From the NCBI GenBank assembly GCA_963803975.1, contig CAWDOY010000036.1:1-64000 (forward strand): DNA of 64,000 nt, read 5' to 3'. This document shows positions 30,001 to 33,000 of the stretch, piece by piece; within the stretch, counting starts at the first letter, position 1; the number at the start of each line of letters is the position of its first letter. The position numbers were made by a program. The DNA comes from an uncultured delta proteobacterium (GTDB lineage Bacteria > Desulfobacterota > WTBG01 > CAIYCZ01).

Positions 30001-33000
30001 CGCGCAGTGGCGCCGCGGAAATGGTCAGATCAATTGGGGAGCCGTCTTTCTTATTACAGCGAATTTCAAAATCAGTAAAGCTGTTTCCCTGCGTCACCCG
30101 CTCCATCATACCCTGAACGTCGCGCTGTTTATCCGGCGGAACAAAGGGAAGCGGCCTGCCCAGCACTTCTTCCGCGCTCCAGCCGAACATGCGCTCTGCT
30201 GCCGGGTTCCACATTTTTACCTTCTGCCCTGCCGCAATGGAAACAATGGCCAGCGGCGAAGCTTCAATAAGAGCCATGAGCGCCTCGTTTGATTCAATAA
30301 GGGCCTCCTCGGCGCGTTTACGCTCGCTGACCTCCTTGACCAACTCAGATTTTTGCCGGAAAAAAGTGGTGATCAGCCGGGCGAGGTTGCCGAATTCAGT
30401 GCGGCTGCCTTCCAGCCGGTGAATGAGCTGCGGGTCTTCTGTTTTAAGATTGCGGGATGTCATGATTGAGTGGAATATTTACCCAACGCAGCAGAAAGTA
30501 GAAAATGCCGGTTATAATTGCCGAGGCAAACACGGCAAACAGCATTATTTGCCGTGTTGTCATCAGGTTTAATTCTTTTAACAGGGGAGATTCATTCATC
30601 ACGGAGACCAGCAGCCGGGGTTTGATCCATCCATAGAAAACACGGGAAAAACTGAACGAGCCGGTGCGGTAATTGTACGTATAGCTGCTGTCAACATTCT
30701 CTCCGGTGCCCCCGAGCGGCTGGACGGTAATGGTGCTTTCAGTCAGAATCGACAGCTCATCGATATAGTCCCGGCTCCACAGCCTCCCCGCCACCAGGAA
30801 TCCCGGGGAGCGGTTTCCGCAACCGGTCGCCTGCCGGCTGAACCGGCGCGGTCTGTATCTCCATGACGCCGTAGAGAGTGTTGATGAAGAAATGGCTGAA
30901 AAAATGTGATGCGAAAGACTGGAATCGAGGAGCCGGGGAGGGCTATGTTCTGCAGCTTCTCCCTGGCCAGGGCGGCATGGCTGAAGTACAGAGGGGAAAA
31001 AGCAGCATCAAATATCCACACGGCATGGATGTAAAAGCTCGAAAGAAACGGATCAATAGTGCTGTGCACCAGTTCCTGATTGCCGTTTGCTATAAAGCTG
31101 ACTATTTCATCCCGGTTGCTGAAATCATACGCGAACATTTCAAGGGATGCGCTTTCAAGCTTCAGGATTTTATCGAAGAGGGTGTTTTTTTCCAGGACGC
31201 GGGTCCGGATAATCATTTCTTCACGGCTGCGCTGGGAATAGCGCATCAGCATGAAAGCGGCAAGAAACAGGCAGGTAATGAAAAACAGCAGCAGGATGAT
31301 TTTGGTCTGTATTTTCACTGCACATTCTGGACGGCGGGTTTATCTTATTGGATGGAGTATATCACAGAAGGGCAGGGGGCAGTAATAGTAAATTTCAAAA
31401 CCGGTCCCGCGTTGAAGCAGAGTAGCAAAAAGGGAGACGGAAAACAAAATACGTGCCCGAAATTTTGCACCGGGCACTTGTTTAATAAAATTCCTGTTAG
31501 AGTCCTGGGCCGTAATAGTCGGTCCGCCAGAAGCCCTCCTTGAAATAGTGATTGAAAGCATCCTCATCGTTGAAAAGCAGGTGCCCGAGACTTACCGCGG
31601 AATCTTTTTCCAGCAGGGTGTTGATGAACTCTTCCGTGCCGGCTTTGGTGCCGCTTATCAGGGCAGCATCATCCTCGGGCTGCAGGCGGGCAAGTGCGGT
31701 CAGATAGGCATCAGCATAGAGCTTGAATGCTTCCAGTGCAGTATCATAGTATGCCTTGAGCTCGGCTTCATCGTCTGACTTGGGTTTCTGGATTTCAATG
31801 CGGTACTTTGATTTATAGGCTTCAAGATGTTTTGTGTATTTGCCCCGGTCTTCTCCGGTTCTCTGGTATTTTTCAACGAGCGCCAGCCCCTGGTCGAGCT
31901 TTGCAACCTCATCGCCGAAGAATGTGTCAACGTCGATTTCATCCATGTTGACATCATAAAAGTCCATGCTGAAGGAGGTGGACATTCCTGCCATACCTTT
32001 CAGTGCGTCGCCATGCAGATAGGGTGCCCGGATGTCGGCATTGGGCCGCACCACGAACGCCACATCACTGAAGGAGCCGGAATCCGGCGGCTCTTCAAAC
32101 TGGCTGATGCAGGCGGTTGCCATGTGGTCGCTTTCACCCGGATAGAGATGAACTTCAAGCTGGCTGGAGCCGAAAATCAAGCGGGGCAGCAGCGTCAGAT
32201 TCAGGACATAATTATCAAAGTCCTTTGCGATGTCGCGGGTATCGTATCCCGGCATGGCCTGAAATTTTGCCAGGAGGTACTCCTGCATGTTTTTATACAG
32301 GTCATAGTCTTTTTCCGGGGTCTTGGCGCAGGAAACAAGCAGCGGGATACAGCACAGCATCAGGATAGCAAACGAGAAAGATTTTGCATGTTTCATAGGG
32401 ATACTCCTTGTGTGAGTTTATAAATATATAACCATGGTCTCTTAATAGGTAATAAAAGAGTTGATAATGGATGTCAAGGTGAAAAGCTGGATGTGTATGT
32501 ATTTAAAGTGAAAAGTGAAAGGTGAAAGGTGAAAGGGAGGATACTGTTAGCTTCTGTTAAGAAATTTGATGAGAAAGACAGCAGAGCCAGCCCCGTTTTC
32601 AATGAGATGGGCGATGACCGGCGTCAGCAGCGAGCCGCTCCACAGATAGCCCAGTGCGAAGAAGATGCCCATGCAAAAAAGCAGCACGGAGTTTTGCAGC
32701 GGAAAAAAGTGGTAGAGAGTGAAGATGAGCGACTGCAGGATGAGTGAAACCACGATACCAAAACGGTTTGACAAAACCGGCAGCAGCATGCCCCGGAAAA
32801 TAATTTCTTCACCGAAAGCATTAAGCAGGGCCGCCGTGAGCAGGAGCGCGATAGCGACAGCTGAACTGGTGTGCTCCAGGGCAGCGCCGCCGGTTGAAAC
32901 ATACGGGGTGCCAAACAGAAGATACGAGTATTTCTGGTAGAGACCGGCAAAGACCATCATCCCCGCAGCCAACACCACACCCTTCCACAGCGCCTGCCAC

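What a model noticed while it worked through the whole genome (the two positions that open the first line are those of the whole stretch)
31497..32396. Exported (lipoprotein) ferredoxin-dependent-bilin-reductase-fold family outside Pfam
g02981 and paralogs (C24:8777-9645, C54:187761-188657, C35:57685-58580) have no Pfam hit and no BLAST link to the listed FDBR paralogs, yet adopt the PcyA/PebB fold. One subfamily has a lipoprotein signal, the other an N-terminal membrane anchor, so these are envelope-located bilin-reductase-fold proteins, where ferredoxin is not available; bilin binding or capture is the likely role.
Evidence so far: In 20 of 21 order genomes. Model pLDDT 92, pTM 0.88; Foldseek: PebB E 3e-9, TM 0.60-0.68, then PcyA, HY2, RCCR. 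Invariant His128 and Asp130. Lipobox-like Cys in 11 of 20 homologues, hydrophobic anchor in 7, start uncertain in 2; self-BLAST hits only its own paralogs. Neighbours include DUF1302/DUF1329/MMPL, PNPOx and cupredoxin-like genes.
(Added by a program. Inside this text positions count along the whole contig: contig position 1 is position 1 of the stretch shown here. "Call 12" and the like, gene names such as g00115 and contig names such as C1 are that model's own, and its searches are not shown. The text may have been shortened before it was handed on; [...] marks where a part breaks off. The agent that wrote the report below was given it as the finding of a first reader that could run no searches.)

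Follow-up and report, generated by a model that had tools for sequence, protein, structure and literature searches.

The report
Exported bilin-reductase-fold lipoprotein family
Uncultured sediment bacteria that cannot photosynthesise place a relative of the pigment-making bilin reductases on the outer side of their inner membrane, beside a transport system, which suggests an undescribed way of capturing and processing chlorophyll- or haem-derived pigments without oxygen.

Summary
[quoted passage not shown] The family occurs in 20 of 21 genomes of one uncultured Desulfobacterota order.

Corrections:
(1) It keeps both catalytic aspartates (Asp130 = PebS D105, Asp265 = D206).
(2) It is linked by profile to the Pfam-positive FDBR two genes upstream, which is also membrane-anchored.
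(3) 'No electron donor' does not follow: a Sec-exported flavodoxin lies directly upstream of that neighbour in 16 of 20 genomes.
(4) The C24 and C35 'paralogs' are frameshifted duplicates.

The subfamilies differ. The lipoprotein form is very acidic, lacks a basic helix, and lies beside DUF1302/DUF1329/YCF48/MMPL genes (12 of 16 metagenome loci). The anchored form keeps the helix and never does (0 of 32).

Best reading: a periplasmic tetrapyrrole-capture protein serving an importer, with the anchored sister the likelier catalyst. Ligand and activity are untested. No paper on exported FDBRs was found. Earlier scan notes describe other tetrapyrrole-type genes in this genome, but not this family on other DNA.

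The parts
31497..32396 (-). Subfamily A gene: 299-aa lipoprotein with the FDBR fold (P0001)
32328..32396 (-). Type II signal peptide and lipobox, residues 1-23; Cys23 codon 32330-32328
32404..32409 (-). Shine-Dalgarno-like AAGGAG, 7 bases before the ATG
32007..32015 (-). His128-Gly-Asp130 on the central strand; Asp130 aligns with PebS Asp105
32064..32066 (-). Asp111, aligned with Ile86 of PebS and the matching Ile of a phage PcyA
31602..31604 (-). Asp265, aligned with PebS Asp206
32547..33311 (-). CPBP (Rce1-like) intramembrane protease gene; upstream neighbour in close relatives only
33351..34148 (-). Family C: Pfam-positive FDBR (PF05996, 71 bits) with an N-terminal membrane anchor; keeps the D105 equivalent, has Gly-Gly at the D206 position
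34200..35313 (-). Sec-exported flavodoxin-domain protein (Flavodoxin_5 plus a KA1-like C-terminal domain); split here by a frameshift near 35040, intact in relatives
35395..36759 (-). FAD-dependent reductase of the geranylgeranyl-reductase type
28604..31318 (-). CHASE4-PAS histidine kinase (broken by indels that short-read contigs lack) and LuxR-type response regulator
22099..28483 (-). YCF48-like, MMPL/RND, DUF1302 and DUF1329 genes: envelope transport cluster downstream of the A gene

Best explanation
The gene belongs to a deep, order-restricted branch of the FDBR superfamily that has moved to the periplasmic side of the envelope. The older form (B) is held in the inner membrane by an uncleaved N-terminal anchor; the derived form (A, this gene) is a lipoprotein. 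How A most likely works: it is lipidated at Cys23 (shown by motif), faces the periplasm, and holds a tetrapyrrole from outside the cell (a bilin or chlorophyll/haem breakdown product) in the FDBR pocket through Asp130, Asp265, His128 and Asp111 (residues shown, ligand inferred). It then passes the ligand along a DUF1302 (outer membrane) - DUF1329/YCF48 - MMPL (inner membrane) route to the cell's many cytoplasmic FDBR-, DPOR-, chelatase- and GGR-like enzymes (gene linkage shown; direction and hand-over inferred). A probably does not take electrons from a protein donor. B, which keeps both aspartates and a basic helix, is the likelier catalyst, possibly fed by the exported flavodoxin (inferred).
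For: Fold: Z 22 against PcyA, HY2 and PebB. Pocket residues: Asp130 in 80 of 80 lipoprotein sequences, Asp265 in 77 of 80 (3 gaps), His128 and Asp111 in 79 of 80; mapping to PebS D105/D206, whose catalytic role is stated in bioRxiv 10.1101/2022.08.22.504806 (passage). Context contrast: importer genes beside 12 of 16 A loci and 0 of 32 B loci with at least 3 kb of flank in metagenomes, and 6 of 14 A and 0 of 16 B loci in genomes, in five different gene orders. A is acidic (median pI 4.3, n=40); positions D+7 and D+8 after Asp265 are both basic in 0 of 77 A and 18 of 20 B. In PcyA an Asp at Ile86 stabilises protonated biliverdin and stops product formation (PMC9800206, passages). Genome: 17 PF05996 matches over the cut-off, 8 nitrogenase-like matches, 5 ferrochelatase-like matches, one with a similar anchor; no haem oxygenase and no PF00124 reaction centre found (98% complete). 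All 11 of 401 phylum genomes with the family are among the 12 with PF05996 over the cut-off; G013 lacks the family, family C, the flavodoxin and PF05996 together.
Against: No ligand or activity data. The kept aspartates fit catalysis as well as binding. 8 of 14 genomic A loci have no importer gene nearby, and two lie beside a short exported HemG-like flavodoxin. The role of DUF1302/DUF1329/BNR/RND clusters is unsettled: export of a wall component (10.1101/072470) or ester hydrolysis (10.1101/2020.07.04.188060) were proposed. Loci are related, so the counts are not independent, and the co-absence in G013 is one event. That the basic helix docks ferredoxin is recalled; I did not find it in the papers read. 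Several B members are acidic too (pI 5.1-6.2). Residue mapping rests on sequence alignment at 10-20% identity, not on superposed coordinates.
Confidence: 0.45

Rival explanations
1. A and B are both active periplasmic tetrapyrrole reductases using the PebS/PebB two-aspartate chemistry, with electrons from the exported FMN flavodoxin (or periplasmic cytochromes) in place of ferredoxin.
For: Both catalytic aspartates kept. Exported flavodoxin in the same 20 of 21 genomes; hydrophobic leader in 96 of 102 scored homologues, no Tat motif. It lies directly upstream of family C in 16 of 20 genomes, directly upstream of B in G009 and one gene away in G007, and in one run of same-strand genes with A in the window and 4 metagenome loci. 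It is basic (pI about 9 in 11 of 12) while A is acidic. A multihaem cytochrome gene lies near A in G019 and 2 metagenome loci.
Against: The flavodoxin's conserved partner is family C, not A. Its best structural match, FldH (Z 15.0, tied with a plain flavodoxin at 14.6), binds haem and reduces a bilin by hydride transfer and does not stabilise the semiquinone (PMC10404700, abstract), so it may be an enzyme in its own right rather than a one-electron donor. No source of low-potential electrons in the periplasm was identified. A lacks the basic helix.
Confidence: 0.22
2. A is a donor-independent acid-base catalyst on tetrapyrroles (isomerase, tautomerase, metal or side-chain removal), as the same fold works without ferredoxin in oxygen-dependent coproporphyrinogen oxidase.
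For: The fold is shared with coproporphyrinogen oxidase (Z 16.7; PMC13446030 introduction). A gains an invariant His two residues before the catalytic Asp and an extra Asp. A bilin isomerase activity without an identified gene is reported in a red alga (PMC13193486, abstract). No electron donor would be needed in the periplasm.
Against: The closest structures are reductases, not the oxidase. In that paper the alga's own FDBRs did not act as isomerases. No direct evidence.
Confidence: 0.15
3. The fold has been co-opted for a ligand that is not a tetrapyrrole (another flat hydrophobic compound such as a sterol, aromatic or quinone), or serves export of a cell-made product.
For: DUF1302/DUF1329 clusters occur in phenanthrene, p-cresol and steroid gene clusters and were proposed to export a wall component. 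The genome has 13 DUF1302 loci and 22 AFOR-like loci, which suggests broad hydrophobic catabolism. The family sits on a very long branch.
Against: Every pigment-pathway structure matched above Z 11 handles tetrapyrroles (the one other hit is a chloroplast motor subunit whose ligand I did not check). The pyrrole-contacting Asp is kept. The genome is rich in other tetrapyrrole-type folds.
Confidence: 0.18

Closest known systems
PebB / HY2 / PebS ferredoxin-dependent bilin reductases (PF05996; PDB 6QWQ, 6KME, 2VCK)
   Same: Fold (Z 22.1, 22.2, 17.2); both catalytic aspartates in register; lacks PcyA's Glu76 and His88.
   Different: 10-15% identity; below the Pfam cut-off; lipoprotein or membrane anchor; extra His128 and Asp111; strongly acidic A form; no haem oxygenase found in the genome.
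PcyA and the pre-PcyA proteins of heterotrophic bacteria (PMC10151467, PMC13446030)
   Same: Fold (Z 22.2); Asp105 equivalent; non-photosynthetic hosts.
   Different: Ser and Ala at the Glu76 and His88 positions. Pre-PcyA genes lie with haem oxygenase and globins or photocobilin-type proteins, this family with DUF1302/DUF1329/MMPL. Neither main text mentions periplasm, lipoprotein, signal peptide or this phylum (supplements not read).
Red chlorophyll catabolite reductase (RCCR; PDB 2ZXK)
   Same: Fold (Z 19.7); acts on a chlorophyll-derived linear tetrapyrrole, the class of substrate expected in sediment.
   Different: Plant enzyme using ferredoxin (recalled); no sequence match to PF06405.
Oxygen-dependent coproporphyrinogen oxidase HemF (PDB 3EJO, 1TK1)
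   Same: Fold (Z 16.7 and 11.6); needs no ferredoxin (recalled).
   Different: Lower structural score, 8-9% identity; needs oxygen, whereas the hosts appear anaerobic.
HmuF/FldH haem-binding flavodoxins (PMC10404700), for the neighbouring exported flavodoxin
   Same: Top VIA match of its flavodoxin domain (Z 15.0); precedent for a flavodoxin acting on tetrapyrroles in an anaerobe.
   Different: The neighbour has a Sec leader and an extra KA1-like domain; the haem-ligand His was not checked; Z is tied with ordinary flavodoxins.

Membership tests
FDBR superfamily (fold level) | alpha/beta/alpha sandwich of PcyA/PebB/HY2 | tested here: met
FDBR superfamily (fold level) | Detectable sequence homology to PF05996 members | tested here: met
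   hhalign to family C 93-96% probability; Atlas nearest clusters are PF05996, score 0.84, lead only
Pfam PF05996 Fe_bilin_red | Score above the curated cut-off of 31 bits | tested here: not met
   12.6 bits; best member E 1.8e-4
FDBR enzymes (PebS/PebB/HY2 type) | Central-sheet Asp (PebS D105) | tested here: met
   Asp130
FDBR enzymes (PebS/PebB/HY2 type) | A-ring Asp (PebS D206, gtPebB D219, HY2 D256) | tested here: met
   Asp265
FDBR enzymes (PebS/PebB/HY2 type) | Soluble, in the same compartment as ferredoxin | tested here: not met
   Lipobox in A, anchor in 13 of 13 B; location is predicted from sequence
FDBR enzymes (PebS/PebB/HY2 type) | Ferredoxin-dependent reduction of biliverdin or a related bilin | not testable with these tools
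   needs an assay
FDBR enzymes (PebS/PebB/HY2 type) | Basic surface for ferredoxin docking | tested here: inconclusive
   A acidic and without the basic pair, B keeps it; the identity of the patch is recalled
PcyA | Glu76-His88-Asp105 triad | tested here: not met
   Ser98, Ala113, Asp130 at these positions
pre-PcyA (Pre-1/2/3) | Gene cluster with haem oxygenase and BBAG globin, or photocobilin-type proteins | tested here: not met
   No PF01126 in the genome; no such neighbour among 117 proteins scanned
RCCR | PF06405 match and reduction of red chlorophyll catabolite | tested here: inconclusive
   No PF06405 match in 53 members; fold Z 19.7; activity not testable
Bacterial lipoprotein (subfamily A) | Charged n-region, h-region, lipobox with invariant Cys | tested here: met
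   judged by pattern, no trained predictor available
Bacterial lipoprotein (subfamily A) | Host encodes Lgt and LspA | tested here: met
Bacterial lipoprotein (subfamily A) | Lipidation and membrane location shown | not testable with these tools
   needs globomycin, palmitate labelling or fractionation
N-in/C-out membrane-anchored protein (subfamily B) | More positive charge before than after the hydrophobic stretch | tested here: met
   13 of 13 B; for family C only 26 of 48, with 12 ties and 10 reversed

The most novel reading that the evidence does not exclude
This order of sediment Desulfobacterota makes a living from buried tetrapyrroles and runs part of the chemistry outside the cytoplasm: three envelope FDBR-fold proteins (A, B, C) and a Sec-exported flavodoxin capture and reduce chlorophyll- or haem-derived bilins in the periplasm. 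They would be the first FDBR-type enzymes that work without ferredoxin, possibly using the pigments as electron acceptors.
Probability: 0.22. Interest if true: 0.92.

Novelty: new variant of a known kind. Interest (0 to 1): 0.72.

Why it matters
The FDBRs characterised so far are, to my recollection, soluble enzymes that make light-harvesting or light-sensing pigments. An exported branch with intact pocket residues in a non-phototrophic anaerobe would extend the superfamily to uptake or periplasmic chemistry. How chlorophyll and haem remains are broken down in anoxic sediment has, to my knowledge, no named organism or enzyme; this family, its anchored neighbour and the exported flavodoxin are soluble-domain proteins that can be expressed and tested by simple spectroscopy. 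It also offers a candidate cargo class for DUF1302/DUF1329/YCF48/MMPL systems, whose function is disputed.

Tried and rejected
Complex prediction of the exported flavodoxin with subfamily B (natural neighbours in G009, FMN added): no answer, score 0.02 against a mark of 0.32; no evidence either way.

Profile search of PDB sequences with the family alignment: 2 irrelevant hits at E 0.66 and 7.6. hhalign of the family against the single PebS sequence: no significant match; the mapping came from a multiple alignment. NCBIfam: nothing relevant for A or B.

The tree did not resolve whether A/B and family C are sisters (open fork, long branches flagged), so one origin of export is not shown.

Considered that the three named paralogs show an expansion: rejected, C24 is a collinear duplicate of this contig over 34.5 of 35.2 kb and C35/C54 share a 4.5-kb block. 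Considered decay of the locus: rejected for the kinase, whose indels are absent from short-read contigs; the flavodoxin frameshift was not among the rows shown, but the gene is intact in relatives.

RNA-run contigs cover only parts of the region and show nothing about expression. Promoter and terminator scans were at chance level.

My recollection that Marinobacter AupA/AupB are DUF1302/DUF1329 proteins could not be confirmed in PMC5989066 and is not used. Papers on the ferredoxin-docking patch were not found. The Atlas gave no family for the flavodoxin's C-terminal domain. The 'cupredoxin-like' label for 42124-42597 was not tested; it has no Pfam match better than E 0.17. Whether distant members without a visible leader (P0098, P0101, P0122) are soluble or mis-started is open: their DNA was not obtained.
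Full report
Observation. The window encodes a 299-aa protein at 31497-32396 on the minus strand, with a ribosome-binding motif 7 bases upstream. A short-read contig of another public run covers the gene with 23 other letters and no gap. The N-terminus is a lipoprotein signal: Cys23 is invariant in 48 of 48 aligned homologues (48 of the 77 hits plus query were chosen), the lipobox positions fit, and +2 is never Asp. The host encodes Lgt and LspA. An AlphaFold2 model from 53 sequences has pLDDT 94 and pTM 0.89. Foldseek ranks gtPebB first (E 7.8e-9), then PcyA and HY2. 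VIA-align over 48,161 chains gives Z 22.2 (PcyA, HY2), 22.1 (PebB), 21.0 (PebA), 20.5 (a chloroplast motor subunit), 19.7 (RCCR), 17.2 (PebS), 16.7 and 11.6 (coproporphyrinogen oxidases), and 5.2 for the best unrelated chain. The fold claim is secure.

The family is below the Pfam cut-off but not without signal: PF05996 is the only Pfam family matching the query (E 0.11) and matches 11 of 53 members. Profile comparison links it to the Pfam-positive FDBR two genes upstream (33351-34148, 'family C') at 96.5% probability, and 93.1% with leaders removed. Family C itself has a hydrophobic N-terminal anchor in 48 of 48 homologues, so three FDBR-fold types are in the envelope; the other intact PF05996 paralogs of the genome have no such leader. 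Of the named paralogs, C54 is intact; C24 and C35 are frameshifted. C24 is a collinear copy of this contig at 82-94% identity over 34.5 of 35.2 kb, and C35/C54 share a 4.5-kb block. These are probably co-binned relatives or recent duplications, so the genome has in effect one lipoprotein gene (A) and one anchored gene (B).

Distribution. The family is small: 65 representatives at 50% identity, 32 at E below 1e-30. It is in 20 of 21 order genomes and 11 of 401 sampled phylum genomes, 10 from this order and 1 from the same class. Record titles name uncultured Thermodesulfobacteriota or deltaproteobacteria. Runs holding part of the region are labelled freshwater, sediment or plain metagenome (20 runs, 13 studies, 4 with half or more of the words). 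By my reading of N-termini (one B gene assigned by identity only), B is in 20 of 21 genomes and A in 13 of 21. In the tree, A/B form one branch (100/100) and lipoproteins form a supported group (97/89) inside anchored forms, so A looks derived from B-like proteins; the root is by midpoint and the relation to family C is unresolved. All 11 phylum genomes with the family are among the 12 with PF05996 over the cut-off. G013 (95% complete) lacks A/B, C, the flavodoxin described below and PF05996 together; that is one event.

Active site. A multiple alignment with P-SSM2 PebS and a phage PcyA puts Asp130 on PebS Asp105 and Asp265 on Asp206. These aspartates are described as the first proton donor and as needed for A-ring reduction (10.1101/2022.08.22.504806, one passage). 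Among 112 sequences of 240 aa or more, the 80 lipoproteins have Asp130 in 80, Asp265 in 77 (3 gaps), His128 in 79 and Asp111 in 79; the other 32 have Asp/Glu130 in 31 and Asp265 in 31 (near-copies included). PcyA's Glu76 and His88 are absent. His128 replaces a Gly two residues before Asp130 on the same strand. Asp111 sits at the Ile86 position, where an Asp in PcyA favours protonated biliverdin and blocks product formation (PMC9800206, passages). The pocket is therefore conserved as if it still holds a tetrapyrrole. Conservation alone does not separate binding from catalysis, and the mapping is by sequence at low identity.

Two subfamilies, two contexts. A is very acidic (median pI 4.3, n=40) whereas B is on average basic but variable (median 8.7, range 5.1-9.1, n=13; more acidic B members). 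In the helix after Asp265, positions +7 and +8 are both basic in 0 of 77 A and 18 of 20 B; I recall this helix as part of the ferredoxin-docking surface but could not confirm it in print. In 80 metagenome loci, genes for DUF1302, DUF1329, YCF48 or MMPL lie beside 12 of 16 A loci and 0 of 32 B loci with at least 3 kb of flank (32 shorter loci set aside; two pairs are near-duplicates). In genomes the counts are 6 of 14 and 0 of 16. Five gene orders occur, in three of which A lies inside the cluster. The genome has 13 DUF1302 loci in 4.25 Mb, so by my rough arithmetic chance proximity is under 10%. Against this, 8 of 14 genomic A loci have other neighbours, mostly housekeeping genes. B lies near an FMN_red-family flavoprotein or an aldehyde:ferredoxin oxidoreductase. 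B's anchor follows the positive-inside rule for a periplasmic domain in 13 of 13; family C's is ambiguous (26 of 48).

An exported flavodoxin. Upstream of family C lies a Flavodoxin_5 protein with a cleavable-type Sec leader, split here by a frameshift. A P-loop motif was scored in 102 of 120 homologues; 96 of these have a hydrophobic leader, none a Tat motif. It is in the same 20 of 21 genomes and directly upstream of family C in 16 of 20 (my count). It is directly upstream of B in G009 and one gene away in G007; a shorter exported HemG-like flavodoxin is divergent from A in G010 and G017. Its model (pLDDT 90) matches FldH best (Z 15.0, tied with a plain flavodoxin); FldH binds FMN and haem and reduces anaerobilin (PMC10404700, abstract). 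So the argument that ferredoxin is absent, hence only binding, does not follow. But the flavodoxin may be an enzyme or carrier itself, and its steady partner is C, not A. The spacer before A is 150 bases and A lacks these upstream genes in G019, so co-transcription is not shown.

Genome setting. 25 PF05996 matches, 17 over the cut-off; 8 nitrogenase-like and 5 ferrochelatase-like matches, one with a similar anchor; no haem oxygenase and no PF00124 reaction centre found. The cell has no known way to make biliverdin, so substrates are more likely taken from outside (inference). Earlier scan notes on this genome point the same way; they are leads, and I checked them only in part.

Mechanism. Best (0.45): A is a periplasm-facing tetrapyrrole-capture lipoprotein for a DUF1302/DUF1329/YCF48/MMPL route, and B is the likelier catalyst. 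Shown: signals, fold, pocket residues, linkage, charge contrast. Inferred: ligand class, direction of transport, hand-over, lack of turnover. Rivals: periplasmic reductase fed by flavodoxin (0.22), donor-free catalyst (0.15), non-tetrapyrrole ligand or export (0.18). The transport cluster's function is itself disputed (10.1101/072470 and 10.1101/2020.07.04.188060, passages).

Comparison and novelty. It is built like a PebB/HY2/PebS-type FDBR. It is a member of the superfamily by fold, homology and catalytic residues, but not of PF05996 by score, not a PcyA, and not a pre-PcyA by context. Searches for exported or deltaproteobacterial bilin reductases and for anaerobic chlorophyll breakdown by sediment bacteria returned no paper on this in their listings (only the top rows were seen). 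The main texts of PMC10151467 (abstract and term search) and PMC13446030 (abstract, introduction, first part of section 2.4, term search) do not mention such proteins; their supplements, which hold the sequence lists, were not read. The library lacks most subscription journals. Other papers: PMC13193486 abstract only; PMC5989066 abstract, one section and term searches; PMC10570129, PMC13595931 and PMC1955750 passages only. Verdict: real, a new variant of a known kind, interest 0.72.

Noticed in passing
window 33351-35313 (-): Conserved pair of a Sec-exported flavodoxin-KA1-like fusion and a membrane-anchored PF05996 protein lacking the second catalytic Asp; adjacent in 16 of 20 order genomes. 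Deserves its own study.
   Followed up: partly
G000:C24:1-35195 against window 22702-64000: The whole contig is a collinear copy of this region at 82-94% identity; C4/C31 and other pairs likewise. Probably co-binned relatives, which inflates paralog counts.
   Followed up: partly
window 28604-31318 (-): The CHASE4-PAS kinase carries several indels that short-read contigs lack; long-read assembly errors are likely across the window.
   Followed up: partly
window 38595-45738 (+) and 48690-49417 (+): A second YCF48-MMPL-DUF1302-DUF1329 cluster, followed by a frameshifted soluble FDBR paralog; 13 DUF1302 loci in the genome.
   Followed up: partly
window 42124-42597 (+): Secreted 157-aa protein without a Pfam family; its homologues lie directly downstream of subfamily A in 7 metagenome loci. 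Fold not tested.
   Followed up: no
G000:C3:168821-169543 (+), L203: Ferrochelatase-like protein with the same kind of N-terminal anchor, near nitrogenase-like genes.
   Followed up: partly
L038:9210-9866 and L045:6829-7602: Short HemG-like flavodoxins with export leaders, divergent from subfamily A genes.
   Followed up: partly
L044:11093-13561: Multihaem cytochrome gene near subfamily A in G019 and two metagenome loci.
   Followed up: no
window 32505-32536: Short tandem repeat of 6-7-base units between the CPBP gene and the A gene; matches many unrelated contigs.
   Followed up: no
G000 genome-wide: 22 aldehyde:ferredoxin-oxidoreductase-like and 17 geranylgeranyl-reductase-like loci, several near FDBR genes.
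   Followed up: no
P0098, P0101, P0122: Distant family members with no visible leader; two have Glu in place of Asp130. May be soluble forms or mis-called starts.
   Followed up: no
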